Shown here one piece after another: positions 31,058-57,319 of a stretch of 64,000 bases of DNA (position 1 is the first letter of the stretch; each line of letters opens with the position of its first letter). The notes under the pieces were generated by a model that saw only the letters and a list, made by a program, of their open reading frames with translations, was not told the origin of the DNA and searched no databases. The translations under genes were made by a program, and so were the position numbers. This stretch comes from Candidatus Woesearchaeota archaeon (GTDB taxonomy: Archaea; Nanobdellota; Nanobdellia; Woesearchaeales; JAHWIC01). The stretch is from positions 9,871 through 73,870 of the forward strand of contig JAHWIK010000027.1 of the NCBI GenBank assembly GCA_019322485.1, given 5' to 3'.

Positions 31058-34000
31058 ATGGTGATTTTGATTAAATTTAAACACCTTCAGATGATTGCTA
31101 TTTTCCTTTGTACCTTAATAATAACTATACCTTTCTACACCAGCTCTGTTTATGCTGCAGTGAGCGGGCATATCAAAAGGTATCCAGTTGCTTATGGAAA
31201 CAGTGACGGATTCCCAGGTGCTGCAAGACAATATGATACTATCACTGTCGAAGCACTAGCCAGGATTGATGTAGATGGGGAGTCCCAGCCAGTAAGTGCA
31301 AACCAGGTAAAGCTCTATAATGAAGGCATGGATTTTGATTACTGCGACCCAGACGCAGGCGGGTATTATTTATGTTCGCTTGAGAACTATCCTTACCCTA
31401 CTGGGGGTTTCCAAGGTATAAAAAAATTTGATATAGGCCTTTACCATGAGGGCACCAGGATTGCCGTGGGCCGTGCAAGTGTTGTTCCTGATTTCAAGCC
31501 GCCAAGAATTGAGAGTTTAGCTATAACGCTGCCTAGCGAGGACGCTGTGAAAGGTATTTCAACAACAGGTACAGTCAGCGTGGATTATATTGTCAAAGAT
31601 TATGGCTATCTAAATAGCTGGAGAGACAAGGAATGTTCTGGGATATCTAAGGTTGAATTTTATCTTAACGGATTTACTGGCGGTCCTTTCAAGACTGAAA
31701 ATATAGATACTGGAGATTGTGACTATTCTGACAGTTTCAGTTTTAATGTTCCATCTAATATCATGGTGGGCACAGTAAAGGTCTGTGCAAAAGTCTATGA
31801 CAGGTTTAACCAAGCGTCTTCTGAAGAGGAAGCAAGCCCAAACTGCGTATCCTTTGGTATAGACAGGGAAGGCCCTGGCATCCAGGGAGGCAGCTTTAGG
31901 GTTGTTGATGAAGATGACAGAGATGTCTATTTCTACCACCCTAGAGGAAAGGATGTTGATGTCGTTTTTGTGATAGATGCTGAGGATTTAAACCTAGGCC
32001 AGGGATTAGGTTCAATTAGAATTGATTTAACTACCCTTGATTCTAGTAAGTTAACCAGCAGTAACCTTAACAGCGGCCAGTGCCTAAGGGCCCCAAATTC
32101 AAACCTAACTAATTGTGTAGTATCCATTAATCTTGATTCAGAGGGTGGACTTGTTACCATAACATCTACAGACAGGTATGATAATGTTGATGAGGAGTTT
32201 CTAACAGCAATCTTCACCCTTGATGAAACCGGACCGATTGTTGCGCAGTTTGTCTCTGATAGTATTTTTATGGATGGACTCTATGCCAAGCAATATGGAA
32301 ATAATTTTAGCGCCTTGATTAGCGACGGCGGCGGGATTGGTGTTGATTCTGATGATGTAAAACTGGTTTTCTATGATGGATTTTCTTATGACAGCTCACA
32401 AGACCTCAATGTAGTAACTAATTGTACTGGCACGCCTGGAGCTACAGCATGCCTTTGGGAGGGGGTTGATTTGAGTCCTGGTTCAGATATGGCTGTCAAA
32501 GCGCGAATTGAAGGAAATGACATGCTTGAGAATGCTATTGCTGCTAATGAATTTAATGTAACTGTTGATATAACACCCCCTTTGGTCACTGAGGCTGATA
32601 TCTCAATTGAAGCGCTAGGAAGTCTTACTGGAGACTTAACTAGCGGAGGCGGGATAAATATCACAGCCAGGATAAAAGATTTCACCCAGATATTTGCTCA
32701 TGCTGATCTTTCCAGGTTTATTACAGGTGGGGAGAGGGTTCCTGCTGACAGCTGCATTAAAGTTAGTGATGAATGGGCTGATGAAACTGAATGGGTATGT
32801 TCATGGCTCCGTATGATAGAAGCCCCTGGGCCTGATTCTGGCATAGATATGGATATTGAGTTTGAGGATGTTCCTGGCAATATAGTAACAGTGACAAAAA
32901 CAGGATTAGAGCTTTATGAGCGGGTTGTGGAGGAGGTTCCTGACTATTATGACCTAGATATCAGAGAGGATTTACTTGAGCTCATTCCCATTGATATGGA
33001 GGTTATTGAAAGCCTGACTACACAATTCTATTACCAACTTGTACCTTTTGAGTTATTATATAATGGCCGATGTTCTGGAGATGAGATTGAAATTACGAAT
33101 ATCAGGCTTTTTGGGTGCGAGGGGTATGCTTATCATGCTCCACGTTCCGATGACCCCAGGAGTTATACTGGCTTTATCCAGTTTGCATTAGACACAAATG
33201 AAATTATTAATTATGATGACTATGTAGAGATAGGGGTTGATTCAACCTGCCAGATAGAATTTAATGTGAAATGCCATCAAAAATCTTACTTGCAGCCTGA
33301 GCCAGAAGAGATAAGGCTCAACATACCTATAGTGGTTGGCGATGATGTTGGAGATGACCTAACAGACGATATAGAAGATTTGAAAGACTGGGCTGAAACA
33401 GATTTCTGGGCAATGTGGGAATTCATGGACCAAGTGGTGACTATACTGAAGAATATATGCAAGATAAGGCAGCATATATACCTGATAGCAACGACAATAG
33501 CGCTTATTGGAGCTATTTTCGCTAATTGTTGTGAAAAAGGTGCTGCAGCATCTGCATACTGCTGCCCAGCTGAGATTACTTCAAGCGGGATACATATAAC
33601 ATTTACTGAACCTCAGGAGGCTGGAGCACCAGGAACTACTTTTGAAGATAAGATGAAAAAACTTTGTGCCTTTGTTGGCTGCCAGAAAAAAGACGAGCCA
33701 GGCCTTAGAGCAGAAGACCTCCCTAGCGATACTGCTGGTGCCGGTGATGATGCTCCTGACCCAACACCTAGGGAACTACTTTGCAACAAGCTTGCAAAGC
33801 TAGGCAAAAATTGGATTACTGAATATGACTTTGGTAGTTCCGGCGCTGCACAAGGTGCGGAAACTTATGTAGATGCTGCATGGTCAACATCTGTCTTACA
33901 ATTATCAATGAAAAGCCTTATTTTTGCATCAATCTGCTTATGTCTTCCAGGGATAGTATATAATGTAAGGAAATATAGAGAGCTTGTATGCTGGAAAGCT

Positions 34001-34378
34001 ATCTGTTACAGAGACCTTGTTACACTTGGTCTGCCAAAAGATGAATGCGATAAACAGTATGAATACCATATGTGTGTTTATGTCCTAGGTGATGCTATTG
34101 GATGGCTGTTGTTTAATTTTATTGGAGCTGCGATACAGGCAATAGTACAAATGTTGATTAATCCTGTTGCAGCCCTGTGGGCATGGACTCGTACTGGGCT
34201 GCTTAGGAAGTGCCATACATCTCTTTCAAAAACAGTAAAATGGAGTACATGGTGCGCTGCGTATGCAGTCTGGCAATTGCTCACAAACATCGCAGAAATT
34301 GCAGAGCTTGAAGAGACCTATGAGAATATGAAGTGGGACCATGAAACAAACATGTGCGAAGAGCTTTTAGATGATTGA
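31058..34378 (+). CDS. Family A1: signal peptide + Ig-like array + Cys-rich polytopic C-terminal domain (1106 aa)
   Basis: Signal MIAIFLCTLIITIPFYTSSVYA. Units are delimited by DFKPPRI, DREGPGI, DETGPIV and DITPPLV. C-terminus: IYLIATTIALIGAIFANCC ... ICLCLPGIVYNVRKYRELVCWKAICY ... ECDKQYEYHMCVYVLGDAIGWLLFNFIGAAIQAIV. Paralogous to 43343 and 50680. Confidence 0.8.
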   Translation: MVILIKFKHLQMIAIFLCTLIITIPFYTSSVYAAVSGHIKRYPVAYGNSDGFPGAARQYDTITVEALARIDVDGESQPVSANQVKLYNEGMDFDYCDPDAGGYYLCSLENYPYPTGGFQGIKKFDIGLYHEGTRIAVGRASVVPDFKPPRIESLAITLPSEDAVKGISTTGTVSVDYIVKDYGYLNSWRDKECSGISKVEFYLNGFTGGPFKTENIDTGDCDYSDSFSFNVPSNIMVGTVKVCAKVYDRFNQASSEEEASPNCVSFGIDREGPGIQGGSFRVVDEDDRDVYFYHPRGKDVDVVFVIDAEDLNLGQGLGSIRIDLTTLDSSKLTSSNLNSGQCLRAPNSNLTNCVVSINLDSEGGLVTITSTDRYDNVDEEFLTAIFTLDETGPIVAQFVSDSIFMDGLYAKQYGNNFSALISDGGGIGVDSDDVKLVFYDGFSYDSSQDLNVVTNCTGTPGATACLWEGVDLSPGSDMAVKARIEGNDMLENAIAANEFNVTVDITPPLVTEADISIEALGSLTGDLTSGGGINITARIKDFTQIFAHADLSRFITGGERVPADSCIKVSDEWADETEWVCSWLRMIEAPGPDSGIDMDIEFEDVPGNIVTVTKTGLELYERVVEEVPDYYDLDIREDLLELIPIDMEVIESLTTQFYYQLVPFELLYNGRCSGDEIEITNIRLFGCEGYAYHAPRSDDPRSYTGFIQFALDTNEIINYDDYVEIGVDSTCQIEFNVKCHQKSYLQPEPEEIRLNIPIVVGDDVGDDLTDDIEDLKDWAETDFWAMWEFMDQVVTILKNICKIRQHIYLIATTIALIGAIFANCCEKGAAASAYCCPAEITSSGIHITFTEPQEAGAPGTTFEDKMKKLCAFVGCQKKDEPGLRAEDLPSDTAGAGDDAPDPTPRELLCNKLAKLGKNWITEYDFGSSGAAQGAETYVDAAWSTSVLQLSMKSLIFASICLCLPGIVYNVRKYRELVCWKAICYRDLVTLGLPKDECDKQYEYHMCVYVLGDAIGWLLFNFIGAAIQAIVQMLINPVAALWAWTRTGLLRKCHTSLSKTVKWSTWCAAYAVWQLLTNIAEIAELEETYENMKWDHETNMCEELLDD

Positions 34379-34421
34379 GGTGAATATTAAATATCAATAA
34401 AAACAAATCATTAAAAAAATA

Positions 34422-34546
34422 TGATTTTTGCTTGATGCAAACGTTAAAGCAAAAATCATCCGCAGTGTTCCTTTATGCCTCAGCCTAAAGGAAAGCAAGC
34501 GGATGAAAATTCCTTTATACTAAGGAAGAAGGGAATTTTCAGATTT
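34422..34546 (+). repeat. Three-hairpin intergenic element, copy C
   Basis: H1 is TGATTTTTGCTT/AAGCAAAAATCA (12 bp). H2 is CATCCGC/GCGGATG with inner TTCCTTTA/TAAAGGAA. H3 is GAAAATTCC/GGAATTTTC. All arms checked by hand as exact reverse complements. Confidence 0.85.
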
Positions 34547-34580
34547 GATTGTCATAATTAACAATAAATCAAGAACAAAA

Positions 34581-36224
34581 ATGTCAGAACAATCAGCCAT
34601 ATCAAAAGTAACCTTTATCCTAGTGTTTGTTGTAATTGCTATGCTGACTGCCAGCTGGTCTGGCTTGAAGAATATGGGCAGTGCAGCAAGTATTACTGGT
34701 GCAGTAACTTATTCTGATGGAGATATAATGGTTGTAGGTTATGATGATGGTACTACCTTCACATATCAGTATGATGATGGAAATTGGTACGGCACTCATT
34801 CCGGGCCGGATGCCCCCCCAGCTAATATGGACGCAATAATAGACCGTGCTAGTGGACGTGATGACTTTGATGTTACATTGAATTCTGGTGGAGAAATAAC
34901 AAAAATGGACGATGATAGTGGAGCAGGAGATGATGGCGGCGCTGGAGGAGGAGATGACGGTGGTGGTGACGCAACAGCTGGAGCAGGAGATGCTGGAGGA
35001 GATAGTAGTGGCGCTGGAGGAGATACACCTGCTACACCAGACCCCTATGAAGTAGACACCGATGGGGATGGGTTTAGTGATGGACAGGAAGCTGAGCATC
35101 AGACTGACCCTAATAACCCGGATTCCCATGGTGAAGGTATGGGCGATATAGAAGCTATGAGTGATGATGACGAGGATGCAGAGGAGCAAGACGACGCAGC
35201 ATCCGATGCAGCTGACAGGGGATGGGGTGCAGCAGAACAAGCTTACGCAACAATGCATCCTGGTGCTGGTGACCTGGCATGGCAGGGATATTGGGAAGAT
35301 ATAGTTGGACAGGATTTGTCCTTTGTTAATGCTGAAGACCTGCCTGACTGGGCAGCTTATTCCTTAGAAGGGTATGAAGGCTATATATGCGAGCGGATGC
35401 TTGGTTTTGAAACATCAGATTATTTCGTACAGGATTATCCTGGGCATTACCAGGGGGGTGATTTCCCTTCTATTACTAATATTATCTATGCTACTGGTGA
35501 AAGGACGCATTATCCCGTACAACAATTTACAGAATGTACTGGGAATAGTGATTATTATGATGGAGAATGGTTCCCTAAGATTACTGCAACTGGTGCAACT
35601 GCCCCTACTGCTGCGGATGCACTAGGTTACTTGTATAAGTTTTCATGGTATGTTGGCCATCCTTTCAGCGAAGACCAGATTGATGAGATGCAGGGGTGGG
35701 AGATTGATGATGAAGGTCTTGACCACAATGGGAATCTGTCATATAAGATATACTTGTTTACTTATCAGTGTGATGACCCAGATGCGTTGGATGTAGACGT
35801 CCCTACACTATCTGATGGGGCAAAAGCTTATATCCTGCCTAGTGAGGCAACATCCTTTAAGGTGAACCCAGGAGCATATCATTCATATACTCATTCATTT
35901 TATGACAAAGCATATATTTATAAGATTTGCATTAGATTTGACAATGACTATGGATGGTCACATGATGGAGATATTGAGGGTTCATGGCCTCCAGAATGTA
36001 AACCAAGCGATATAGATGGTGATGGTGGGTTGGTAGTTGAGTCAACTTCAACTCTTAGCATGCCTCCTGGATTTAATTTCTTCCCGCCAGATACAACCAG
36101 CGCGGGAAGCACTGATGACGGGGTGACATCTACAACAACAAGCGGCAGTGATGGTGACCCTCAGGACTGCACTAGTTGTCCTGCCGGGTTGCAGGGCGGC
36201 GGCGATGTTTGGGAAACTGGATAA
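34581..36224 (+). CDS. Family B1: N-anchored acidic protein with TSP type-3-like Ca-binding repeat and shared C-terminal domain
   Basis: The track start at 34545 is a TTG inside the repeat element, and the first ATG is 34581 (MSEQSAISKVTFILVFVVIAMLTA...). D/G-rich region; DTDGDGFSDGQEAEHQTDPNNPDS resembles a thrombospondin type 3 / bacterial Ca-binding repeat. The C-terminal GYLYKFSWYV and YIYKICIRFDND match B2. Confidence 0.75.
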   Translation: MSEQSAISKVTFILVFVVIAMLTASWSGLKNMGSAASITGAVTYSDGDIMVVGYDDGTTFTYQYDDGNWYGTHSGPDAPPANMDAIIDRASGRDDFDVTLNSGGEITKMDDDSGAGDDGGAGGGDDGGGDATAGAGDAGGDSSGAGGDTPATPDPYEVDTDGDGFSDGQEAEHQTDPNNPDSHGEGMGDIEAMSDDDEDAEEQDDAASDAADRGWGAAEQAYATMHPGAGDLAWQGYWEDIVGQDLSFVNAEDLPDWAAYSLEGYEGYICERMLGFETSDYFVQDYPGHYQGGDFPSITNIIYATGERTHYPVQQFTECTGNSDYYDGEWFPKITATGATAPTAADALGYLYKFSWYVGHPFSEDQIDEMQGWEIDDEGLDHNGNLSYKIYLFTYQCDDPDALDVDVPTLSDGAKAYILPSEATSFKVNPGAYHSYTHSFYDKAYIYKICIRFDNDYGWSHDGDIEGSWPPECKPSDIDGDGGLVVESTSTLSMPPGFNFFPPDTTSAGSTDDGVTSTTTSGSDGDPQDCTSCPAGLQGGGDVWETG

Positions 36225-36242
36225 TTATCAATTAGAAAAAAA

Positions 36243-38609
36243 ATGAAAAAAAGAGGTGTAGCCTTTAAAAAAGGCCAGATAACTGTATTTATAATAATTG
36301 GGATTCTCTTATTAGTTTCTATTTCTACAGTGGTATATTTTAGAGGGAGGGCAGTCAAGGATATACCTATAGAAGAATTTGTTGAGGTGCCAGAGGTTGC
36401 AGCAGAGCTTGTGCCTATTGATTTGTTTGTGAAATCATGCATTAGAAGAAAGATTGAGGGGCCTGATGGTCCTCTTAAAGGCGCCCTTAGGATAGCTGAA
36501 GAGCATGGCGGCTATATCTACCAGGAAGAATTACAGCCCGATTATATGTCCCCAACAGAAGGCAATGCTATTGAGTATCTGCCTAACTCTGGTATACTAA
36601 TACCCTACTGGTATTATATGAAAAGCCCGAATTATTGCCAAAGTAACTGCAAATTTGACACAATGATGCCGCCATTATGCAAGCCTTCACCAAGAGAGTG
36701 TGTCAATGAAGGCCAGGGCTCAATTGAAGAGCAGCTGGAGCGGTATTTATTAGAAAATATTGATGAATGCTTGGCTGGTTTTGCGGAAACAGAGAAACAG
36801 GGCTTTGAGGTGACTGAGCTTGGTGAGCCCCAGGCTAATGTGATAATAAGGGACAGGGATGTGCTAGTCAGGCTTTACTATCCCTTAAGCATAGAAAAGG
36901 AAGGAGCTACTGGCGGGATAGATGATTTTGTAGTGACAATAAGAAGCGACATAAAAGAGCTGTATACAATGGCTTATGAGATGGCTAAATATGACATGAA
37001 TAACTGCTTTATTGGCAAACATATACAAAACCATATTTCATACTCTGCAGGGCTAGGGGCTGGTAAACTGCCTCCAATCTATGAGCTTACTATAGGAGAG
37101 CCTTCCATGCAAATATGGTCTTTAGAGAATGTCAAGCAGCTTTTGAAATATAGAATAGTTGGAGCTGTTCAGTTAATTGGCGTGTTTTACACAAAAGGGT
37201 TTACCTGGCCAACATACCATGACCCAAATGACCCATATTACTCAACAAGACAGGGAATCCTTGACAATCAGGTTTTCAGGCCATTTGATACCTTCCATGA
37301 TGCTACTGTGATTTTTAATTACCTTCCGTGGTGGGATATCTATCTTGACATAAAACCAAGCAGTGGCGGTGTACTAATGCCTTCTGACTTTGGCATGGAT
37401 GCAGGAAGTTTCGCTACATTAATAGGTACAATATCACAGACAAAGACCTACAAATTCTCTTATCAATACTCATTCCCTACAGTGGTTGATATAAGAAAAC
37501 TGGATTATAGGAATGATGAGCATGTTTTCAGGTTTGCGCTTGAGGCAAATGTCAGGGCTAACAGATGCTTCAGTCCAAACATTACCATGACTTACACCAG
37601 GGATGCCTTTGCCACAGGATTATGCGATTATGTACAGGCTAGAAGGAATGCCACTATTAATGTAAAGGAGATTACGCGCGAATTTGGAAATTATGTCCAA
37701 CATCCAGTGGATGAGGTTAAGGTTACTTTCTTTGCAGGCACTACCTGCTTGCTAGGATTCACTGATGAAAATGGTATTATTGAAGCCAAATATCCAGCTG
37801 CTTATGGCGCGCAAATGAAATTTGCTAAAAGAGGCTATGCTGAAAAGATTGTAGATGTCTCTGATATTAGTGATGGTGCAACAGTCATCATAAATAAACT
37901 AAGAACATACAATGCAACAGTAAAGCACTTTAAGATGAACCGCGACAGAAGCTTGCCTCAATCAGGGGTAGACCTTGAGCCAGGGGAAACTGTGGTAATC
38001 ATGCTAAAGAAAGCTGACTACCCAGAAATACCGAGCCAAGTAGTGTCATTTGATGGCAGCTCTGAAACAAATATGACCTTAGATCTGATTGAGGGTAATT
38101 ATGAGATTAGCGCGCAGTATTTTAAGCGCAGCCCCTTTAGTTTACCTCCAATGTGCATCCATATATGTAATCATGGAACATTTTCACAGCCAAGCACTGA
38201 TTCATGGGATGCTGTAAACAACGTGCCAACAAGCAAGTGCTTTGATGATGATTGTACTCCCGGAGGGGATTGTTATGGATATAGCACTGAACTTATTGAT
38301 TTAGGTGCTTATGTCGAATGTTGCAATCAGGCCAATGAATGGATTCCTGAAGATCCAGTTAATATTTCACTCATGGGCGGGGCTAAATTTGACCAAGATT
38401 TAGGTTACTGGACACTAACTGAAGGGCATTATTATGACCCAAGGGGCACAATAGAATTTAATGTGCTAAGCCAACCAGACCCTGACTGCGTTTCGGCTGA
38501 TGATTGTGTTGTACCTGACTGCATAGGCTATAGTGATGACCTTAGTGCTTTGGGTACCTATTATGAAACACACTGGAGTACACTTAGGCCAAGTTTAGTT
38601 TTTGGATAA
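36243..38609 (+). CDS. Family C1: 788-aa protein with class III (type IV pilin-like) signal-peptide-like N-terminus
   Basis: MKKRGVAFKKGQITVFIIIGILLLVSISTVVYF. The shared core FVKSCIRRKIEG...GGYIYQ...PTEGNAIEY...IPYWYYM... aligns with C2 and C3. Confidence 0.8.
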   Translation: MKKRGVAFKKGQITVFIIIGILLLVSISTVVYFRGRAVKDIPIEEFVEVPEVAAELVPIDLFVKSCIRRKIEGPDGPLKGALRIAEEHGGYIYQEELQPDYMSPTEGNAIEYLPNSGILIPYWYYMKSPNYCQSNCKFDTMMPPLCKPSPRECVNEGQGSIEEQLERYLLENIDECLAGFAETEKQGFEVTELGEPQANVIIRDRDVLVRLYYPLSIEKEGATGGIDDFVVTIRSDIKELYTMAYEMAKYDMNNCFIGKHIQNHISYSAGLGAGKLPPIYELTIGEPSMQIWSLENVKQLLKYRIVGAVQLIGVFYTKGFTWPTYHDPNDPYYSTRQGILDNQVFRPFDTFHDATVIFNYLPWWDIYLDIKPSSGGVLMPSDFGMDAGSFATLIGTISQTKTYKFSYQYSFPTVVDIRKLDYRNDEHVFRFALEANVRANRCFSPNITMTYTRDAFATGLCDYVQARRNATINVKEITREFGNYVQHPVDEVKVTFFAGTTCLLGFTDENGIIEAKYPAAYGAQMKFAKRGYAEKIVDVSDISDGATVIINKLRTYNATVKHFKMNRDRSLPQSGVDLEPGETVVIMLKKADYPEIPSQVVSFDGSSETNMTLDLIEGNYEISAQYFKRSPFSLPPMCIHICNHGTFSQPSTDSWDAVNNVPTSKCFDDDCTPGGDCYGYSTELIDLGAYVECCNQANEWIPEDPVNISLMGGAKFDQDLGYWTLTEGHYYDPRGTIEFNVLSQPDPDCVSADDCVVPDCIGYSDDLSALGTYYETHWSTLRPSLVFG

Positions 38610-40973: not shown

Positions 40974-41065
40974 TTTAGTATAAATATAGTATATATAAAG
41001 TATAAAGTAGTCGACAAAAAAAGAGAAAGGTTTATATATTTATACATTATTTAGTATAAATATAG
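40974..41065 (+). promoter_or_regulatory. Two exact 16-nt direct repeats TTTAGTATAAATATAG (40974-40989, 41050-41065) bracketing the promoter of the second RHH operon
   Basis: Read directly. The two copies are 76 nt apart start to start and flank the BRE/TATA-like element at 41023-41037. Confidence 0.6.
41023..41037 (+). promoter_or_regulatory. BRE/TATA-like promoter element (AGAAAGGTTTATATA)
   Basis: Consensus match 47 nt upstream of the ATG at 41084. A second similar box, AGAAAGATTTAAATA, lies at 40950-40964. Confidence 0.5.
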
Positions 41066-50683: not shown

Positions 50684-53600
50684 ACCACAATAAATTTATT
50701 GCTATGTTGTTGATTAAGCTAATCCTAGTTATGCCTCTATACACTGCTTTGGTATTTGCACAGCCCCAGCAGCAGGGGCCTTCTATAAGTGTGACTATAC
50801 CTAGGTATTACAATAAAAGGGTGATTGATATTACTGGCGGGGTAAGCCCTTATTCGATTGTTCGGCTTTATGTTGACAACAACCTCCTAATGAGCTTACC
50901 CCGCCCAGAAACTGAAGACAGCGTATTCGAGTTCAACAATATTAACCTTGGCAGCCACGGCACTACAAGGACAATAAAGATTGTTGCAGAAGACCAGGCA
51001 GGAAATACAAACGAAGAGGAATTTCTTATAACAGTTGATGAGGAAAAACCAGAGATTAGTGTCAGAGGCATACCGGAATATGCTTTCGAATCCAGGATAA
51101 GGCTCAATGGCTCTGTAAACAAGGAGGTAACAATAAATGCCTATGTTGTCCCAGCTGTAATTGACACAGTGGAACCAGCAAAGATTTATGGACTTGAGAA
51201 TAAGTCTGTGCGGCCAAACCTTGTAGAGCTTGGATGGCACCAGGCAAATGAAACAGATTTTGATAAGTATATTATTTACAGGAGTGATGTCGGGGTTATA
51301 GCAGCAGTATCTCCTGTTGATTATAATGCATACAATGATGTCTTGGTTAATTCAAATGAAACATACACTTATAGGGTTGCTGCTATGGACCTTGCAGGCA
51401 ACGTTGGCGGGCAGTCAGACCCATTAACAGTCACAGTTCCTCAGGGAGGCAGGACAGGCATCAAGAAACCAGAGGCAATAGACCCAAGCAAGGACAGAGG
51501 CCTGCAAAAAACCATCACTGCAACAGAAGATTTCAACTTTGAGATTGAGCTTGGTGAAGACGGACCTTATAATATAAGATTAGAGGCAACCGACGCTGCT
51601 GGAAACACACTAATAATTGAAAACCACACTATCCTTGATACAAAACCACCAGAATTTGAGGAGATACTGCCAAGAACAAGCACAAGGATATATGAAACCT
51701 ATGCAAAAGAGGTTGATATTGAGGGAAGGACAAAACCATTCACAAAGGTAAAAATCTATTTGAATGAGATTAGTGGTGTAGAAGATTTCTCAACAATCTC
51801 TGACTCAACTGGATTTTTTAGGTTAAATGATGTTGATATTACCTCTTACTTTAGAGGAAGCCTTATGCCAGAGCATGTTGGGGTTGGAGAGCTGGAAAGC
51901 AGGTATGGTGTTGTTGAAGAGGAATCAGGAAGGCATGCAAGAAAGGTAACGATTTACTTTGTTGCTGAGGACAGGTTTGGAAGAACAGCAGAGGCGACAG
52001 TCATATACAACATTGTAACATGCTGGGAAGGGAAGTTTGAGTGGAATGCAAGGCCACTGCTTGAATACCAAAGCCCATCGTGGTTAAGTGTTGAACGATT
52101 GGGGGAGGGAACTGAATCAATATACTTCTTCTTTAATTTCACTTATCTGGGAGAGGGCAGAGATGCAAGGATTGAAGGTATAAATTTCCAGAGAGCCTGT
52201 GATGACTACATCATGAAAGACCCAAGATACAATATAAGCTGCCAGATTATGCCAAGCTCCTGCACTGCAAAAGGAAATGATGACAATACAATGCAGTATG
52301 TTGCCTGTGACCTGGGGCAGTATGATGGATTTAATGATTTTGGCGAGGATGACTGGGTGGATTTCTTTGGAGCAATAAACAATGAGATGATATTCCCGTT
52401 CAGGGTAACGATAAGATACAGCCATATCATAGGCAATAACAGGACACGGGGGCATCAGACCTTTTGTGAGCCCGTAACCTTTGTTGTTGATTCAAGCAAA
52501 GTTGATTTTAGGGATGTCCTGCCTGACTGGCTGCTTTATGATGCAGTTGATTCAATAAATGAAACAATAACAACCCTAAATGAATGGCAGGAGCAGATAA
52601 AGAATGTGTTGGAATACCTGGGCATTGGCTGTGTGATTGCTTTTGGCCTCAAAACTGTTGCAACTATCTACCGAAGGTTTGTGTGCTATTGGGAAGGCTT
52701 CCAGGAAGAAACAAAGAAAATGTTTGACAAAGGGGTAGAGTCAGGAGAATATGAGGCAAAAGAGGGTGAGGAAGCGTGCAAGGCTAAACAGGATGAAAGA
52801 AACAAGCTTTCTGATGCGGACTTAGAGACAGACTGCACTCAATGTCATGGTGCATGGGACTTTGAGGAAAACCTTTACATTGCTTACAGGACTTTATGTG
52901 ACAGAGTTTTTTGCCATGATTCACCAGCAAGATGGACTGAGAATAAGCCGGATGCTGAGCTTTATGAAGCAGCTATTAAAGAGGTAAACCAATGCGGAGG
53001 TGATGACCGTGGCGTAAAGGGGCAGCCTTTAACACAAATATCATGCGCTCCATTAAGAAAGGCAGGTGCTCTTGACACACCTACAATAGACAAGAATAAT
53101 GCCGGAGATGAGTGCTACCAGGCCAGGGTGATGCTTCGTGATAAAATACCCGATATTGTGGTGTTTGTAAAAGAAAAAGATTCTGAAGAAGGTAAAACAG
53201 GAATTCATCATTTTACAAGCGTTTCTCTCCAGGCGCCCAGGGCTGGGTTCAAGCCAGACATCAATTTTTATGCTAAAGAGGTAGAAGGCTCTCTAAAGAA
53301 TTCTTATTATACTGCAAATGTAAAAACCTGTGAAGAGGTTTGCGGCAAGGAGTCAAAGCACCTGCGATGCATTCCATCAGAGCAGTGTCTTGCACTAAAT
53401 GCTCCTGAAAGTGAAGATAAAAAGAAAAAGATTAGGGAGATGAATATAGGCTTAGACCCTGATAAAGCGAAATACAGCAGCAAGCGTGCTGGCTATACAA
53501 GGGATTGTGTTTTTGGCAATCCAAGCGGATATTTACCTGACAAGATAAACTATATGAATGTTGAACCTGATACCGAATTCCCAGGAGATACTCTAAAAAA

Positions 53601-56475
53601 TACAAAAGAGTGCTGCTGTGTTTATGAAAGCGAGAAAGCGCCATCAAAGTTTTATATGGACGGGGACTATGGAATCAAAGCACATAAAGAAACAGGCTAT
53701 CCGGAATGGAGCTATAGGTATGACCAGATTAAGTTCAAAACAGGCCCTGACTCAGATGAGGCTAGAAAGCCTACGCACAGGGACCATACTGGATACAATC
53801 CAGACAGATACATAGCAGAGCGTGATTTTGCTGGCTGCTTTGGGCAGAATTATGTGCTTGACTTGAAAGGCACCAGTAAAATGAAGCTTGATCCTTTCAA
53901 GGATCACATTGCGACATTCCAATGCTTATGTGTGAGTGGGGTATACAACAGGCTGCAGTTAATCAAGAACATACTTACTGCTATGCAGAACTGCCTTGTT
54001 ACTGTAAGAACAACAGGTACTGCTGATACTGGTGTCTGTAAGGAATTGTTTTCGCAGTATGTTTGCTCATTAGTGTGGTACCTTATTTCTTTCCTGGAAA
54101 CTGGCTGCCTGCCATGGGGCGGAAAAGGAATTGACTTATCAAAATCAAACGATAATATATTAAATGCTGTCAAGGGCGGCACAAGTGCCATATTTGGAGG
54201 AATTGCAGAATCAGCAGCTGACTTAGCCTCAGATTATGGGAATGCACAGCTAAACAATTTGATTGGAGCTGGCGAAGGAGCAATTGTAAGGAAGATTTGC
54301 ATGGCTGCTTTTGGTTTTGACTGGGATTTTGATATTGAGGATTTGATGGATGTTGCTTACTCAACTCCTTATGCAACGTTGGTGCAGGCTGTAGCGCCAA
54401 GAAGGGAATATCTAACCTATGACCCAGTCAGTGGCCAGTCAAAATATGAGTACAGGGGCTCATGGATAATCAATCCTGGCTGTGATTTAGACAACTATAA
54501 TGTTTACCTAAGCTGTGTTTCAAGGAATGAGATGGACAAATACCCTGGAATTAACTGCGATGCTGTTAATGACCCTGAGGGAGTTAACTGCGACTGCTTA
54601 AATCTTAACAAAGAAGAAGTAAAGCTGTTCTATGACGGCAGGGGCTTAAAACAAAGTATTCTTGAAGATACTGACAAACATGACATCATAACATCAAGGA
54701 ACAGGTTTGACCATCTTAAGTTTGAACTAAAGCCAGCGCATGATATACCCCAGCGTACAAGGGAAAGGTGCTTCCCTGAGGGGCATGAAAATGGTGTATT
54801 CTATTTCCCAATAATGGATAAGACTGCAACTGATGTAGCCGCATGTTATGTTGATATTGCTACTGGCACATTTAACTGCCTTGTAGGGCTGCCTTTCTTC
54901 AAAGCCAAGGGAACTGGCTACTTTGTTGACTTAAAGCTAAACGAACAAAAAGCAGAAGACCTTAAACAGCTTCAGGTTGGTCAGCAGCTGGTCTTAACCC
55001 CAAGTGTATGGAAAGCTGCTGGGCCTGACCTTTGCCTTTATGTTGAATATCTAAGTTCAGGCAAATATAATGAGGAAGGCTCGCCATTTATTGTTCCTGT
55101 AGAGCAGCTTGGAACCAGAGAATACCCTCCAATTATAATTAGTGATGGTGTTTCTATGCGTGGTGTCCGGAGGTTCAACTTAAAGACCAGCAATCCTCCA
55201 GGAGGGGATATCATCCCAAGAACTCCTGAAATGGGGGCAAGGTTTGTTGCCGGAGAAACAATGGTCGTTCATTTCTATGACAAAGGCAAACAAGGAGGCG
55301 GGCAAGGAGCTGATGGTATAATAACAATAAACAGGAATAGCCTTGATGAGGTAATGGTTGAGAGGGTAGACGGAAGCCCAATTGCAATAAAAGACTCTGG
55401 TTACTTGGATAAGGATAAGAATAAGTTCGTACTCAAGAAAGGAGGGATTGTGTTCTTGGTTGATACTGTTACATTGCCGACTGTTGATGGGAAGAAGGTT
55501 GAGCAGGTTGCCTTCACAATAGCCTCAGAAGAAAGGACTGTTGCTGCAGAGCAGGAAACAAAAACATTAAAGGTTTCCCTGGTTTATCTAAAGGGGGATA
55601 ATTCAACAAAGTATATCGGTGCTCAAAACTGCAATACTGCTGATAAAGTAAAGTACCAAGGAAAAACGCAGGAAAGGGAATACAGGATTACTGTAAAAAC
55701 AGAGGTTGAGAGCGGGGTATGTCATTTTAACAGCACTGCTCCTGTTCCAAGGGCCTGTAAATGCGACGCCAGCACAAATAACTGCGGTTTAGATGCTGAC
55801 TATAGATACTGCTATGCTAAAGAGGGAGAAGATAAAAGAAGCTGCCGTGCGTATCCAAAATGCCCGGATGAAGTAAAAGGACTGAGTATTGCCTGTGACT
55901 GTGATGGAGACGGCGCAATAAACAATATCACTGCCCTGGCAGAGATAAAGAAGATGAACAACACCTGCGAAGGGGGGCCTGCGGAAAATAAATATTGTTG
56001 GAGTAAAGGTGGCGGGAAAAAGGGATGTCATGCAGATGCTAGTGGAGCTGCTCCTCCTGCGCCAGCTGCTGTGGGAGCTGCTGCTGGACCTGGTGCTGAG
56101 CCTCCTCCTGAACCTCCTGTTGTGGAAGTGTATACTTTCAGAAATGAACTTGTAGACAAAAATCTGCGTTGGCGCAGGGACGGAAGCAATGAGTATGTAG
56201 GAACTTTTAGTAAAAAGGATGATTCAGTTAATATTGAACTTTATGAGGGATTTATGCAAAGAGTTAAACCCAGAACCCAGGAAATAAATGAGGATAATGC
56301 AAGGTCAATAATCTGCGATAGTGTGATACAGCTTCAGCATGAAGTGCATGGACTTACTAGTTATTATCCTGTTGTTTTATATGATAAGGGAGCTATTACT
56401 TATCCCACTCCAGGCCAACAAAAAGAGGCCTATAAGCATTTATGCGAACCAGGGGCAAGCGGTGGAGCAGATTAA
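50680..56475 (+). CDS. Family A3, expanded paralog (1931 aa)
   Basis: ATGA overlap with the C3 stop. Signal FIAMLLIKLILVMPLYTALVFA, Ig-like units (DEEKPEI, DTKPPEF) and an FN3-like unit. TM LGIGCVIAFGLKTVATIY, a ~430-aa Cys-rich insert, then the family core FQCLCVSGVYNRLQLIKNILTAMQNCL...VCKELFSQYVCSLVWYLISFLETGC. A further ~840 aa follows, including an Ala/Pro linker. Confidence 0.8.
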   Translation: MNHNKFIAMLLIKLILVMPLYTALVFAQPQQQGPSISVTIPRYYNKRVIDITGGVSPYSIVRLYVDNNLLMSLPRPETEDSVFEFNNINLGSHGTTRTIKIVAEDQAGNTNEEEFLITVDEEKPEISVRGIPEYAFESRIRLNGSVNKEVTINAYVVPAVIDTVEPAKIYGLENKSVRPNLVELGWHQANETDFDKYIIYRSDVGVIAAVSPVDYNAYNDVLVNSNETYTYRVAAMDLAGNVGGQSDPLTVTVPQGGRTGIKKPEAIDPSKDRGLQKTITATEDFNFEIELGEDGPYNIRLEATDAAGNTLIIENHTILDTKPPEFEEILPRTSTRIYETYAKEVDIEGRTKPFTKVKIYLNEISGVEDFSTISDSTGFFRLNDVDITSYFRGSLMPEHVGVGELESRYGVVEEESGRHARKVTIYFVAEDRFGRTAEATVIYNIVTCWEGKFEWNARPLLEYQSPSWLSVERLGEGTESIYFFFNFTYLGEGRDARIEGINFQRACDDYIMKDPRYNISCQIMPSSCTAKGNDDNTMQYVACDLGQYDGFNDFGEDDWVDFFGAINNEMIFPFRVTIRYSHIIGNNRTRGHQTFCEPVTFVVDSSKVDFRDVLPDWLLYDAVDSINETITTLNEWQEQIKNVLEYLGIGCVIAFGLKTVATIYRRFVCYWEGFQEETKKMFDKGVESGEYEAKEGEEACKAKQDERNKLSDADLETDCTQCHGAWDFEENLYIAYRTLCDRVFCHDSPARWTENKPDAELYEAAIKEVNQCGGDDRGVKGQPLTQISCAPLRKAGALDTPTIDKNNAGDECYQARVMLRDKIPDIVVFVKEKDSEEGKTGIHHFTSVSLQAPRAGFKPDINFYAKEVEGSLKNSYYTANVKTCEEVCGKESKHLRCIPSEQCLALNAPESEDKKKKIREMNIGLDPDKAKYSSKRAGYTRDCVFGNPSGYLPDKINYMNVEPDTEFPGDTLKNTKECCCVYESEKAPSKFYMDGDYGIKAHKETGYPEWSYRYDQIKFKTGPDSDEARKPTHRDHTGYNPDRYIAERDFAGCFGQNYVLDLKGTSKMKLDPFKDHIATFQCLCVSGVYNRLQLIKNILTAMQNCLVTVRTTGTADTGVCKELFSQYVCSLVWYLISFLETGCLPWGGKGIDLSKSNDNILNAVKGGTSAIFGGIAESAADLASDYGNAQLNNLIGAGEGAIVRKICMAAFGFDWDFDIEDLMDVAYSTPYATLVQAVAPRREYLTYDPVSGQSKYEYRGSWIINPGCDLDNYNVYLSCVSRNEMDKYPGINCDAVNDPEGVNCDCLNLNKEEVKLFYDGRGLKQSILEDTDKHDIITSRNRFDHLKFELKPAHDIPQRTRERCFPEGHENGVFYFPIMDKTATDVAACYVDIATGTFNCLVGLPFFKAKGTGYFVDLKLNEQKAEDLKQLQVGQQLVLTPSVWKAAGPDLCLYVEYLSSGKYNEEGSPFIVPVEQLGTREYPPIIISDGVSMRGVRRFNLKTSNPPGGDIIPRTPEMGARFVAGETMVVHFYDKGKQGGGQGADGIITINRNSLDEVMVERVDGSPIAIKDSGYLDKDKNKFVLKKGGIVFLVDTVTLPTVDGKKVEQVAFTIASEERTVAAEQETKTLKVSLVYLKGDNSTKYIGAQNCNTADKVKYQGKTQEREYRITVKTEVESGVCHFNSTAPVPRACKCDASTNNCGLDADYRYCYAKEGEDKRSCRAYPKCPDEVKGLSIACDCDGDGAINNITALAEIKKMNNTCEGGPAENKYCWSKGGGKKGCHADASGAAPPAPAAVGAAAGPGAEPPPEPPVVEVYTFRNELVDKNLRWRRDGSNEYVGTFSKKDDSVNIELYEGFMQRVKPRTQEINEDNARSIICDSVIQLQHEVHGLTSYYPVVLYDKGAITYPTPGQQKEAYKHLCEPGASGGAD

Positions 56476-56494
56476 GTAATTACTAAAATCCAAA

Positions 56495-57319
56495 ATGTCA
56501 AACCTAATAACAACTTCTCTAAAACAATCCTTTAAACTGGTAAAAAAACACAAAAGGATAGTTTTAGGATTATTAATCCTGCAGATAATATTTCTCAGCC
56601 TGATGATTGGCTTGCAGATGCATTATCAGATGAAGGCATTTGAGGTTGCTGAAGTGGTGATGGAATATCTCGACCAGCAGGACCTGAGTGATATTGAGGT
56701 TGCAAAAAACATTGTTACTGGCAGCAATATACTGGGGGATGACCCCTTGATGATTTACAGAAACTACAGAAAGATAGCTGGCTTTATGGTTAGATTAAGT
56801 ATTTACAGCCTTGTTGTTTATCTCGTTTTTGGAAGCCTGAACTGGGCCCTAACAGACCAGTTGATTTATGGGAAGAACAAAAAGAGATTCCTGGCTTATA
56901 TTGGGAAGTTCTGTTTGCTTGCCATGGGTTTTTTGGCATTAATTTTCCTGCTTGCATATTCCAGCCTTAAAGGGGTGATTGGAGGGCTTATTTTAGAAAC
57001 ATTAACTTCTGGGAATTTTGTTTATCTGATTTTGGGGTTAGCATTGCTCTATTTCATGTTTATCTCATTTGCATTGATATCAAGGATTAAATTCAAGGAG
57101 ATATTAAGAAAGGCATTAATGCTCGGAGCAAAGAAAGCGCATATAATTCTGCTTGTGTATTTGATTAATTTAGTAATTATAGTTTTACTTGTTAGGCTGG
57201 TGCATTTCCTGAGCACAAAAAGTATTTTCCTGTTATCACTAGCTTTATTATTGCTGCTCTTTAGTATTGTATGGACAAGAATATTCCTGGTTTTGGTCGT
57301 TGACAAGTTAAAGATTTAG
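56495..57319 (+). CDS. Family D2: polytopic membrane protein (274 aa)
   Basis: Same length class and hydropathy layout as D1, with the shared motif ILRKALMLGAKKAHIILLVYLI. It is the last gene of the operon. Confidence 0.7.
   Translation: MSNLITTSLKQSFKLVKKHKRIVLGLLILQIIFLSLMIGLQMHYQMKAFEVAEVVMEYLDQQDLSDIEVAKNIVTGSNILGDDPLMIYRNYRKIAGFMVRLSIYSLVVYLVFGSLNWALTDQLIYGKNKKRFLAYIGKFCLLAMGFLALIFLLAYSSLKGVIGGLILETLTSGNFVYLILGLALLYFMFISFALISRIKFKEILRKALMLGAKKAHIILLVYLINLVIIVLLVRLVHFLSTKSIFLLSLALLLLLFSIVWTRIFLVLVVDKLKI

What the first reader, a model, noticed from the sequence alone, without database searches (positions are those of the whole stretch)
31058..57319. Duplicated operonic module of four uncharacterised membrane/surface protein families (A-B-C-D): candidate novel envelope apparatus
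Ten + strand protein genes, arranged as two sets on either side of one minus-strand gene, fall into four paralogous families that I cannot assign to any named system. Their order is A1(31058)-B1(34581)-C1(36243)-D1(38614), then RHH(41084)-C2(41248)-A2(43343)-B2(46390)-C3(48788)-A3(50680)-D2(56495). The second set is one translationally coupled operon: TAATG at 41246-41250, stop/start pairs 43341/43343, 46387/46390 and 48786/48788, and ATGA at 50680-50683. Family A has a conserved signal peptide (..(I/M)P(F/M/L)Y(T/S)(S/A)...A), Ig-like units delimited by D-x-x-x-P-x-(I/V), and a Cys-rich polytopic C-terminus. Family B has an N-terminal anchor, an acidic or Thr-rich linker and a shared C-terminal domain. 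Family C has a pilin-like N-terminus and a shared core (F(V/I)(K/E)SC...GGYI...PYW(Y/F/W)). Family D is ~270 aa with 5-6 TM helices. No ATPase, secretin, sortase or glycosyltransferase lies inside the block. A fixed set of a membrane-embedded giant, pilin-like subunits and a small polytopic protein, duplicated and diverged, looks like a dedicated surface structure for attachment, host contact or a fibre rather than unrelated adhesins. That functional reading is inference only.
Basis: partly seen in the sequence, partly recalled or inferred. Interest (0 to 1): 0.9.

Follow-up and report, generated by a model that had tools for sequence, protein, structure and literature searches.

The report
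Conserved Woesearchaeota surface-protein gene supercluster
This block is one copy of a gene cluster conserved across dozens of uncultivated Woesearchaeota (DPANN) archaea; it encodes only exported or membrane proteins from families with no known relatives, so it probably builds a still-undescribed structure on the cell surface.

Summary
All genes, coordinates and stop/start overlaps are as described. A1~A2 and C1~C2~C3 align directly (E 1e-27 to 1e-65). A3 and the D1/D2 pair join their families through profiles (E 2e-13, 2e-9). B1/B2 share a C-terminal domain (hhalign 86-92%).

The arrangement recurs in related genomes. Among 81 related loci, nearly all labelled Woesearchaeota or Nanoarchaeota, the recurring order is MetRS | A-b-D-C | M< | (RHH) C-A-B-D-C-A(giant)-D. 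An A gene directly follows 67 of 87 scorable C genes, and the median gene overlap is 4 nt. The paralogs are therefore ancient cognate subtypes, not a recent duplication. The minus-strand gene M and the RHH gene also belong to the cluster.

Pfam, NCBIfam, PHROGs, PADLOC, PDB profile searches and Foldseek gave no match to a described system. The hits were only Ig-like or beta-sandwich domains.

- The Cys-rich C-terminus of family A is not convincingly polytopic.
- Family C's N-terminus matches the archaeal class III (pilin-type) signal motif in 153 of 225 proteins, but no pilus machinery lies nearby.

Best reading: a lineage-specific, membrane-anchored, multi-subunit surface complex. Its function, envelope or attachment, is inferred only.

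The parts
28903..30972 (+). MetRS-like gene. It is a conserved left-hand neighbour and marks the locus as chromosomal housekeeping context. It is not a component of the system.
   Evidence: The N-terminus is typical of methionyl-tRNA synthetase. Homologues lie directly upstream of the module in about 20 related loci.
31036..31047 (+). Promoter-like box TTAGTATAAAAC, 22 nt before the A1 ATG. It is shared with the second gene set.
   Evidence: The motif TTAGTATAAAWA has 6 matches in the window against 1.6 expected. Three of the six lie upstream of the two gene sets.
31058..34378 (+). A1: Sec-type signal peptide, about five Ig-like (Big_3-type) units, then a beta region and a Cys-rich helical C-terminal domain.
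34379..34580 (+). Structured intergenic spacer with three hairpins. It belongs to a repeat family with four copies in the window.
   Evidence: MFE -53.5 kcal/mol, z -6.6. Copies lie at 61901-62074, 6324-6458 and 14355-14446.
34581..36224 (+). B1: N-terminal anchor, acidic Gly/Asp linker with one TSP3 repeat, and the B-family C-terminal domain.
36243..38609 (+). C1: class-III-signal-like N-terminus (KKGQITVFIIIG), alpha/beta core, beta-sandwich domains.
38614..39423 (+). D1: membrane protein of about 270 aa with 5-6 TM helices and no invariant polar residue.
39424..40668 (-). M: conserved fifth family. It has a cytoplasmic N-terminal helical domain, one TM helix, an extracellular CARDB-like domain, a Pro-rich linker and Cys-rich repeats.
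   Evidence: 24 homologues lie at the same position, between the two gene sets or beside C2.
40975..41062 (+). Two exact copies of TTAGTATAAATA (40975-40986 and 41051-41062) in the M/RHH divergent intergenic region. They are a probable promoter and/or RHH operator.
   Evidence: Parts of this spacer are conserved in L001, L054, L059 and L068.
41084..41248 (+). RHH-type small DNA-binding protein, translationally coupled to C2. It is the probable operon regulator.
   Evidence: The strand-helix-helix pattern can be read from the sequence. There is a weak DUF6290 hit. Homologues 72-96% identical lie directly upstream of C2 in 8 loci.
41248..43341 (+). C2: proximal C subtype. The AlphaFold2 model is high-confidence.
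   Evidence: pLDDT 91.2: helix 7-40, alpha/beta domain about 50-430, beta-sandwiches 440-660, C-terminal helix 672-687.
43343..46387 (+). A2: cognate partner of C2.
46390..48786 (+). B2: N-terminal anchor, long Thr/Lys-rich linker region, and the B-family C-terminal domain (about 640-780).
   Evidence: 33 homologues in the loci. hhalign links it to B1 and to the small b proteins.
48788..50683 (+). C3: distal C subtype.
50680..56475 (+). A3: giant distal A subtype (1931 aa). The family's Cys-rich domain is internal (about 610-1215) and carries large insertions, followed by a C-terminal extension of about 700 aa.
   Evidence: Comparable giants of 1863-2712 aa appear, and a 1962-aa one in L081.
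56495..57319 (+). D2: second D-family membrane protein, following A3 as in L071 and L080.

Best explanation
WHAT IT IS. The block is one copy of a chromosomal gene supercluster found throughout Woesearchaeota-type DPANN archaea. Its order is MetRS | A1-B1-C1-D1 | M (minus strand) | RHH-C2-A2-B2-C3-A3-D2. It encodes only exported or membrane proteins, from five lineage-specific families.

MOST LIKELY MECHANISM. It builds a multi-subunit structure on the outer face of the cytoplasmic membrane.
- Each C subunit is held in the membrane by a class-III (type-IV-pilin-like) N-terminal helix. It carries an alpha/beta head and a beta-sandwich stalk.
- The cognate A subunit is translated from the overlapping next gene and exported through Sec. 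It binds through its disulfide-rich helical C-terminal domain and projects about five Ig-like domains outward.
- B has an N-terminal anchor, a flexible low-complexity linker and a small C-terminal domain. D has 5-6 TM helices and no conserved catalytic residue. Both serve as membrane-side scaffold or assembly partners.
- M is a further anchored partner.
- RHH regulates the second operon.
- Three cognate C-A pairs give three versions of the projection, one of which carries a giant A of about 1900 aa.
- Export and processing would use Sec and a prepilin peptidase encoded elsewhere in the genome.
- The structure serves as an envelope or attachment (surface or host contact) device.

SHOWN: the families, their ancient subtypes, conserved synteny and translational coupling, exported or membrane character, the fold class of C, and the absence of known homologues.
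INFERRED: physical C-A-B-D interaction, signal processing, regulation by RHH, and the function.
For: - Paralogy.
- 409 C relatives were found in the species-genome collection. The 80 best loci are almost all from Woesearchaeota or Nanoarchaeota MAGs.
- Gene-order maps: C-A-B-D-C-A in dozens of loci; A-b-D-C-M< in about 10; L068 and L072 mirror the window. JGI locus L081 reads C703-A1031-B677-D257-C651-A1962, none with a Pfam hit.
- 67 of 87 scorable C genes are followed directly by an A gene. Median gap is -4 nt for C>A, A>B and B>D. Window junctions agree.
- The C N-terminus K[KR][GAS]Q[IV]TxFII[ILV]G occurs in 153 of 225 sequences, near residue 6.
- C2 model: pLDDT 91, with an N-terminal helix, an alpha/beta domain and beta-sandwiches. 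The beta-sandwich part resembles stalks of pilins, adhesins and SlaB.
- A: Big_3_3 Ig units in 20 of 30 members and about 11 invariant Cys in the C-terminal domain.
- The A C-terminal domain has 1446 representative clusters (741 at E<=1e-10), nearly all with the same architecture.
- D has no invariant residue.
- Recurrent neighbours are housekeeping genes: MetRS, ThrRS, Pth, S6e-like.
- RHH is conserved upstream of C2, and the two gene sets share a promoter-like box.
Against: - There is no direct evidence that the proteins interact or are expressed.
- No prepilin peptidase, PilB/FlaI-type ATPase or PilC/FlaJ platform lies in 1.2 Mb of neighbourhoods.
- Pfam's Class_IIIsignal model is not significant on C (E 7.4).
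- In the model, C's N-terminal helix is only about 34 residues and is separated from the head by a lower-confidence linker. That fits a simple membrane anchor as well as a pilin.
- The A C-terminal domain could not be modelled (pLDDT 38), so its docking role is a guess.
- B homology is only about 90% probable, and B is missing or replaced by a small b protein in many loci.
- D is absent between B2 and C3 in this window.
Confidence: 0.5

Rival explanations
1. Pilus-tip or minor-pilin module. C proteins are large minor pilins that prime or cap a type-IV-pilus-like filament. The filament would be built by machinery and small major pilins encoded elsewhere. A is the non-pilin adhesin carried at the tip, working like the bacterial minor-pilin/PilY1 operon or GspK-type tip complexes.
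For: - Positions +1 to +9 of the C N-terminus are very strongly conserved (Q, T, F, I, I, G), as expected for a helix that must pack into a filament core.
- Small K[KR]GQ-type pilin-like genes lie 3-5 genes upstream of C2 in L009, L014, L016, L019 and L046.
- Archaellin (flaB) is among the most expressed Woesearchaeota genes in Lake Dziani Dzaha, so class III processing exists in the lineage (PMC11606122).
- Ultrasmall groundwater cells carry pili-like appendages that reach into hosts (PMC7906910).
Against: - No ATPase, platform protein or peptidase lies near any of 81 loci.
- The small pilins' mature N-termini differ from C's.
- The C model does not show the long continuous alpha-1 helix packed on a beta-sheet.
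- There is no homology to any pilin or to PilY1.
- The window itself contains no small pilin gene.
Confidence: 0.2
2. Two-component S-layer-like lattice. A forms the outer canopy and C the membrane-anchored stalk, in the manner of Sulfolobales SlaA/SlaB. B, D and M act as anchoring accessories.
For: - The locus is core, vertically inherited and embedded in housekeeping genes.
- C and A are strictly paired and translationally coupled.
- Foldseek lists SlaB (8qox_B) among the top hits for C2, E 1.2e-5.
- A is a large multi-Ig exported protein with no anchor of its own.
Against: - The SlaB match is a generic beta-sandwich array (TM 0.13-0.19).
- SlaB is anchored by a C-terminal helix, whereas C is anchored at its N-terminus.
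- Three conserved cognate pairs, including a 1900-aa A3, are not what a single lattice needs.
- There is no sequence homology to any solved S-layer protein.
Confidence: 0.12
3. Host-membrane-active device. The Ig part of A binds a host surface, and its Cys-rich helical domain, with several moderately hydrophobic helices, inserts into or fuses with the host membrane to open the cell-cell connection that DPANN symbionts need. C, B and D hold and trigger it.
For: - Helices of moderate hydrophobicity (mean 1.0-1.4) occur at conserved positions, about 745-756, 873-880 and 930-963 in A2. Only some members reach transmembrane-like values, a pattern seen in proteins that are soluble before insertion.
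- The lineage is thought to be host-dependent (PMC8204110).
Against: - This is argued purely from composition.
- The hydrophobic segment at 745-760 has no conserved residues.
- There is no usable structure.
- There is no similarity to fusexins or to any fusion or pore-forming family.
Confidence: 0.08
4. Co-located but independent surface proteins. This would be a lineage-specific 'adhesin island' whose order is kept by inheritance, with no joint structure. A mobile or viral origin is a sub-variant.
For: All domains that can be recognised are generic adhesin-type modules: Ig-like, CarboxypepD_reg-like, CARDB and TSP3. The window also holds other, unrelated giant surface proteins.
Against: - Four-nucleotide overlaps are preserved at 25-45% protein identity.
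- Cognate subtypes occupy fixed positions.
- The small polytopic D and the b/B proteins are not adhesin-like.
- Genes inserted inside the cluster are toxin-antitoxin-type pairs, while the module itself stays intact.
- There is no match in 50,697 phage records, PHROGs or PADLOC.
- The flanks are housekeeping genes.
Confidence: 0.1

Closest known systems
Archaeal class III signal-peptide (type IV pilin-like) surface proteins, including the Sulfolobus 'bindosome' sugar-binding proteins
   Same: C proteins begin with a short basic stretch, [GAS] at -1 and Q at +1, followed by a conserved hydrophobic helix. This is the pattern used to recognise archaeal prepilin-peptidase substrates. As in the bindosome, the helix carries a large globular extracellular protein rather than a small pilin domain (the bindosome comparison rests on my own knowledge).
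   Different: - No assembly ATPase, membrane platform or peptidase is linked.
- There is no significant match to Pfam Class_IIIsignal.
- The head domain is not a substrate-binding-protein fold among the reported Foldseek hits.
- Each C is paired with a Sec-exported partner A.
Bacterial type IV pilus minor-pilin / PilY1 tip-adhesin operons
   Same: A pilin-like protein is encoded next to, and probably co-translated with, a large (about 1000 aa) Sec-exported non-pilin surface protein.
   Different: There is no sequence or fold homology. A is built from Ig-like repeats and a Cys-rich helical domain, not a vWA domain and beta-propeller. The organism is an archaeon. No filament is known.
Sulfolobales SlaA/SlaB two-component S-layer
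   Same: A large exported protein and a smaller membrane-anchored beta-sandwich protein are encoded side by side. SlaB appears among the Foldseek hits for C2.
   Different: The structural match is generic (TM <=0.19). The anchor is at the opposite end of the protein. There are three pairs plus the B, D and M families. There is no sequence homology.
Module 98 of Castelle et al. 2021 (PMC8204110): 51 mostly unknown protein families shared by Woesearchaeota and Pacearchaeota
   Same: Same lineage and the same kind of lineage-specific hypothetical proteins. Families A-D may well be among them.
   Different: That paper lists families by presence or absence only. I found no description of this operon, its order, its subtypes or its coupling. 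I did not open the supplementary family tables.

Membership tests
Archaeal type IV pilin-like / class III signal peptide proteins (family C) | N-terminal [KR]-[GAS] cleavage-type motif followed by a hydrophobic helix within the first ~30 residues | tested here: met
   K[KR][GAS]Q[IV]TxFII[ILV]G occurs in 153 of 225 C sequences, with the putative cleavage site near residue 6. C1, C2 and C3 all carry it, and they are the only window ORFs with a genuine match (one further hit, inside D1, is spurious).
Archaeal type IV pilin-like / class III signal peptide proteins (family C) | Significant match to a curated pilin or class III signal model | tested here: not met
   Pfam Class_IIIsignal gives E 7.4 on C1 and no hit on C2 or C3. 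None appears among 33 members or in NCBIfam.
Archaeal type IV pilin-like / class III signal peptide proteins (family C) | Genetic linkage to PilB/FlaI ATPase, PilC/FlaJ platform or PibD/FlaK peptidase | tested here: not met
   No T2SSE Walker-A motif and no convincing peptidase motif occur in the ORFs of 80 loci, 1.2 Mb in all. No such Pfam family appears in the annotated locus L081 or in the window. The rest of the genomes could not be read.
Archaeal type IV pilin-like / class III signal peptide proteins (family C) | Cleavage by prepilin peptidase and assembly into a filament | not testable with these tools
   This needs N-terminal proteomics, a PibD/FlaK cleavage assay and imaging.
Archaeal type IV pilin-like / class III signal peptide proteins (family C) | Pilin fold: one long N-terminal helix whose C-terminal half packs on a beta-sheet | tested here: inconclusive
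   The model has helix 7-40, a linker of lower confidence, and then a separate alpha/beta domain that starts with helix 52-78.
SlaA/SlaB-type S-layer | Sequence or specific fold similarity to SlaA/SlaB; C-terminal membrane anchor in the stalk protein | tested here: not met
   PDB profile searches found nothing. The Foldseek hit on SlaB gives E 1.2e-5 but TM 0.13/0.19 and rmsd 33 A, limited to beta-sandwiches. C is anchored at its N-terminus.
Sortase-assembled Gram-positive pili (SpaC, BcpA, SpaA hits) | LPXTG-type sorting signal and a sortase gene | tested here: not met
   No sortase domain occurs in the block or its neighbours. The fold hits have TM <=0.26 and reflect CnaB/transthyretin-like domains only.
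Bacterial Ig-like domain, group 3 (Pfam Big_3_3), N-terminal part of family A | Match to the Pfam model | tested here: met
   20 of 30 family members match, best E 3e-8. In A2 itself the hit is below threshold (E 0.007).
   Family-mean hydropathy is 1.0-1.4 at the candidate helices. 45 of 93 representatives have no window >=1.6 in the last 330 aa, and only 4 have three or more.
Ribbon-helix-helix (CopG/Arc/MetJ) regulators (41084-41248) | Match to an RHH model; N-terminal beta-strand followed by two helices | tested here: inconclusive
   Only a weak DUF6290 hit was found (E 0.011, 16 bits against a cut-off of 27). The sequence pattern fits by eye, and the protein is highly conserved in 8 loci.
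Membrane-embedded processing enzymes (archaeosortase, rhomboid or CPBP type) for family D | Invariant catalytic residues; match to the family model | tested here: not met
   There is no invariant column in 31 D sequences. No Pfam family recurs among the members, and nothing was found in NCBIfam or the PDB.

The most novel reading that the evidence does not exclude
The cluster encodes the long-sought host-contact machine of Woesearchaeota-type DPANN archaea. Three cognate C-A projections would bind a host cell through their Ig-like arrays. The Cys-rich, partly hydrophobic helical domain of A would then breach or fuse with the host membrane, with B, D and M as the membrane base. This would be a new class of cell-cell connection apparatus with no homologue among pili, secretion systems or known fusogens.
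Probability: 0.1. Interest if true: 0.95.

Novelty: categorically new. Interest (0 to 1): 0.72.

Why it matters
Woesearchaeota and their relatives are among the most widespread uncultivated archaea. They are thought to depend on other cells, yet nothing is known about their envelope or how they attach. This analysis defines a concrete and testable set of genes:
- five families;
- three cognate C-A pairs;
- a fixed gene order beside MetRS;
- 1446 representative clusters for the A domain alone.

These genes are core to the lineage, entirely extracytoplasmic, and invisible to current annotation. If they build the envelope or the host-contact structure, they provide handles for several lines of work: antibodies, cryo-ET assignment, host-range prediction from the variable Ig parts, and expression markers in metatranscriptomes. 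Even if the structure proves to be only an unusual surface layer, four or five new protein families with one high-confidence new fold region (the C head domain) would be added to the map of archaeal cell surfaces.

Tried and rejected
- MAFFT --auto on all family members timed out. I replaced it with phmmer/hmmsearch iteration.
- The search for homologous proteins with A2 alone and with a 30-sequence A alignment returned only two true relatives, because Ig-repeat proteins crowded the word filter. The A model therefore rested on 5 sequences and failed (pLDDT 38). I did not run a fold search on it.
- Foldseek of the good C2 model against the PDB and BFVD gave only generic beta-sandwich arrays. 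Nothing specific to the head domain appeared in the 50 rows shown.
- PDB profile searches for A, C and D found nothing.
- Pfam, NCBIfam, PHROGs and PADLOC gave nothing beyond Ig-like, CARDB or TSP3 pieces.
- The viral-contig scan with the 33-sequence C alignment could not be run because no stretch was conserved enough. tblastn of C2 against phage records found no match.
- The look-up of encoding contigs for window proteins returned 'not on record', so I could not read the rest of the 90.6-kb source contig.
- I rejected a defence-system, virus or mobile-element origin, and an enzyme role for D (reasons under the rival explanations and membership tests).
- All-against-all profile comparison showed that A, B, C, D and M are mutually unrelated families.
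- Literature searches found no description of this cluster.

Full report
1. WHAT IS IN THE SEQUENCE

| Gene | Coordinates | Strand |
|---|---|---|
| A1 | 31058-34378 | + |
| B1 | 34581-36224 | + |
| C1 | 36243-38609 | + |
| D1 | 38614-39423 | + |
| M | 39424-40668 | - |
| RHH | 41084-41248 | + |
| C2 | 41248-43341 | + |
| A2 | 43343-46387 | + |
| B2 | 46390-48786 | + |
| C3 | 48788-50683 | + |
| A3 | 50680-56475 | + |
| D2 | 56495-57319 | + |

A methionyl-tRNA-synthetase-like gene (28903-30972) precedes them. The junctions in the second set are exactly as described: TAATG for RHH/C2, spacers of 1-2 nt for C2/A2, A2/B2 and B2/C3, and ATGA for C3/A3. The window has about 40% G+C and no tRNA or Rfam match.

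2. ARE THE FOUR FAMILIES REAL?

Direct BLASTP supports two families. A1~A2 gives E 2e-65. The three C pairs give 1e-27 to 1e-56.

The other links are not significant pairwise. D1/D2 gives E 1.9, A2/A3 gives E 0.03, and B1/B2 gives two collinear HSPs at about 0.01.

I therefore fetched 80 related loci using the C alignment, called their ORFs and built profiles from them.
- A profile made only from A1's direct hits finds A3 at 2e-13.
- A profile made only from D1's direct hits finds D2 at 2e-9, and the reverse search gives 3e-17.
- B1 has one close homologue only. Profile-profile comparison of B1 and B2 gives 86-92% probability, E 6e-7 to 5e-6, over the C-terminal 140-200 columns.
- The same domain makes up the small (150-220 aa) signal-peptide proteins found between A and D in other genomes.
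- A, B, C, D and M are otherwise mutually unrelated.

All four families are therefore real. B is the least secure.

3. THE DECISIVE TEST: CO-OCCURRENCE

The C family has 409 confirmed relatives in the collection of one genome per species. The 80 best are almost all MAGs labelled Woesearchaeota, Nanoarchaeota or Nanoarchaeia. The rest are third-party bins labelled 'uncultured Methanosarcinales' that share the same MetRS-linked synteny, so I suspect those labels.

Gene-order maps show two recurring arrangements:
- (MetRS) (M<) C-A-B-D-C-A, in dozens of loci;
- A-b-D-C-M<, in about ten loci.

L068 and L072 join the two arrangements exactly as this window does. L071 and L080 end with C3-A3-D2 as here. 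An independently annotated JGI contig reads C703-A1031-B677-D257-C651-A1962, none with a Pfam hit.

Of 87 full-length C genes with enough downstream sequence, 67 are followed directly by an A gene. The median gap is -4 nt for C>A, A>B and B>D.

Best-hit typing shows position-specific subtypes. The proximal pair is C2/A2-like (76 and 69 loci). The distal pair is C3/A3-like (28 and 18 loci) with a giant A. The paralogs are therefore old, cognate pairs maintained across the lineage, not a recent local duplication.

Two further genes belong to the cluster:
- M has 24 homologues at the same position.
- The 54-aa RHH protein is 72-96% identical directly upstream of C2 in 8 loci, far more conserved than C2 itself.

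Genes that interrupt the cluster in some genomes are HEPN/nucleotidyltransferase-type pairs and similar insertions. Recurrent outside neighbours are housekeeping genes: MetRS, a Zn-ribbon protein and a DegT-like protein as in this window, plus ThrRS, Pth and S6e-like genes. The locus is chromosomal and vertically inherited.

4. WHAT THE PROTEINS LOOK LIKE

Family C.
- The N-terminus K[KR][GAS]-Q-[IV]-T-x-F-I-I-[ILV]-G is present in 153 of 225 sequences, near residue 6. This is the pattern of archaeal class III (prepilin-peptidase) signals, but Pfam's model is not significant.
- The AlphaFold2 model of C2 (104-sequence alignment) has mean pLDDT 91. It shows helix 7-40, an alpha/beta domain at about 50-430, beta-sandwich domains at 440-660 and a C-terminal helix.
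- Foldseek against the PDB and BFVD returns only tandem beta-sandwich proteins, with TM <=0.26. These include B. anthracis TIE, SlaB, the Gram-positive pilins SpaC/BcpA/SpaA, CarboxypepD_reg-like domains and phage tail proteins.
- No match specific to the head domain was reported.

Family A.
- It has a Sec-type signal peptide with a conserved Pro.
- It has about five Ig-like units with invariant D-x3-P boundaries and one Cys pair each. Big_3_3 matches 20 of 30 members.
- These are followed by a beta region and a helical domain with about 11 invariant Cys. The core of that domain is the block C-x-PGIIYNL-x-K-x-RQI-x-C...C...C...GEIF...PF.
- The candidate helices are only moderately hydrophobic. 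45 of 93 representatives have no TM-strength window in the last 330 aa. I therefore do not accept the 'polytopic' description.
- An exhaustive profile search finds 1446 representative clusters for this domain, 741 of them at E<=1e-10. Almost all are proteins of 1000-1100 aa with the domain at the C-terminus. The rest are giants of 1.9-2.7 kaa with the domain internal, like A3.

Family B. It has an N-terminal anchor, a variable low-complexity linker and a C-terminal domain of about 130 aa. The linker is acidic with a TSP3 repeat in B1 and Thr/Lys-rich in B2.

Family D. It is about 270 aa with 5-6 TM helices. No column is invariant in 31 sequences, which argues against an enzyme.

M. It has a cytoplasmic helical N-domain, one TM helix, a CARDB-like domain, a Pro-rich linker and Cys-rich repeats.

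No family matches anything in Pfam, NCBIfam, PHROGs, PADLOC or PDB sequences beyond these generic pieces.

5. REGULATION AND SMALL FEATURES

The box TTAGTATAAAWA lies 22 nt before the A1 start. It occurs twice, exactly, in the M/RHH spacer, with the nearer copy 33 nt before the RHH start. The window has 6 matches against 1.6 expected. It is a plausible shared archaeal promoter box and/or RHH operator.

The 202-nt A1-B1 spacer folds into three hairpins with z -6.6. It belongs to a repeat with three more intergenic copies in the window. The stems are conserved and the loops vary.

6. MOST LIKELY MECHANISM

Everything encoded here is exported or membrane-bound. The genes are translationally coupled, and the C and A subtypes are cognate and position-fixed. 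The simplest reading is a multi-subunit structure on the outer face of the membrane.
- C is anchored by its pilin-like helix.
- A docks through its Cys-rich domain and projects Ig-like repeats.
- B, D and M form the membrane-side base.
- RHH acts as the regulator.

My confidence is about 0.5 for 'joint surface complex'. The interactions, the processing and the function are all inferred.

More specific or alternative versions, each with arguments for and against given in the rival explanations:
- a pilus-tip module (0.2);
- an S-layer-like A/C lattice (0.12);
- a host-membrane-active device (0.08);
- merely co-inherited independent surface proteins (0.1).

No pilus ATPase, platform protein or peptidase lies within about 10 kb in any locus. 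Processing, if it occurs, would depend on genes elsewhere in the genome. Archaellin expression in Woesearchaeota (PMC11606122) shows that the lineage has class III processing. Cryo-TEM of ultrasmall groundwater cells shows pili-like appendages contacting hosts (PMC7906910). The identity of those cells is unknown.

7. COMPARISON WITH WHAT IS KNOWN, AND NOVELTY

The nearest analogies are archaeal class III signal proteins (bindosome-like), bacterial minor-pilin/PilY1 operons, and SlaA/SlaB. For each, at least one defining feature was tested and not met (see the membership table). They are analogies for how the cluster might work, not families it belongs to.

The literature searches found no description of this cluster. 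The closest is a list of 51 mostly unknown families shared by Woesearchaeota and Pacearchaeota (Module 98, PMC8204110).

Within the reach of these libraries, the cluster is a new kind of system built from new families. Its recognisable pieces are ordinary surface-protein modules, and its function is unproven. That is why I set interest at about 0.7 rather than higher.

Noticed in passing
window 34379-34580; copies at 61901-62074 (+), 6324-6458 (-), 14355-14446 (+, partial): A repeated intergenic element of about 170 nt folds into three consecutive hairpins (MFE -53.5 kcal/mol, z -6.6). Stems are conserved between copies while the loops of hairpins 1 and 2 differ freely. There is no Rfam match. 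It could be a MITE/REP-like repeat or a terminator or processing element. One copy separates A1 from B1.
   Followed up: partly
window 31036-31047, 40975-40986, 41051-41062: The box TTAGTATAAA(A/T)A lies upstream of both gene sets, twice and exactly in the M/RHH divergent spacer. The window has 6 matches against 1.6 expected. It is a probable shared promoter box and/or binding site for the RHH protein.
   Followed up: partly
window 41084-41248 and L001, L002, L007, L011, L017, L054, L059, L068: The 54-aa RHH protein is 72-96% identical across loci in which the adjacent C2 protein is only 35-49% identical. This is an unusually strong constraint for a small regulator.
   Followed up: partly
window 6816-12749, 14659-18600, 20082-26732: Three giant proteins (1977, 1313 and 2216 aa) are paralogous, sharing blocks up to 73% identical, and are unrelated to families A-D. 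Near them lie a small related protein (12746-13360) and a SpoIIM-like membrane protein (13418-14254). A 300-aa family found directly upstream of C2 in 13 other loci is weakly similar to their N-terminal regions (E 6e-5 to 1e-3).
   Followed up: partly
window 18601-19128 and 19486-20085: Two paralogous HTH proteins (38% identity) lie just upstream of the giant gene 20082. Of the two, only 18601-19128 was scanned against Pfam, and it matches bacterial Sigma-70 region 4. Castelle et al. 2021 noted sigma-70-like genes in Woesearchaeota.
   Followed up: no
window 26729-27535: A MinD/ParA-type P-loop ATPase gene overlaps the stop of the 2216-aa giant gene by 4 nt (26729 against 26732). This suggests coupling between a cytoplasmic ATPase and a giant surface protein.
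   Followed up: no
window 62736-63296 and 63296-63865: Two tandem paralogs are 68% identical (186 and 189 aa) and abut each other. They were not scanned against any family library.
   Followed up: no
L009, L014, L016, L019, L046 (e.g. L016:6513-6989 and 7064-7789): Small (158-256 aa) pilin-like genes with K[KR]GQ N-termini lie between ThrRS and the module in one clade, 3-5 genes upstream of C2. The window has none.
   Followed up: partly
record titles (e.g. L002, L004, L010, L014, L016): About two dozen third-party MAGs carrying this Woesearchaeota-type cluster and its MetRS synteny are labelled 'uncultured Methanosarcinales archaeon'. The labels are probably wrong, or the bins are mixed.
   Followed up: no
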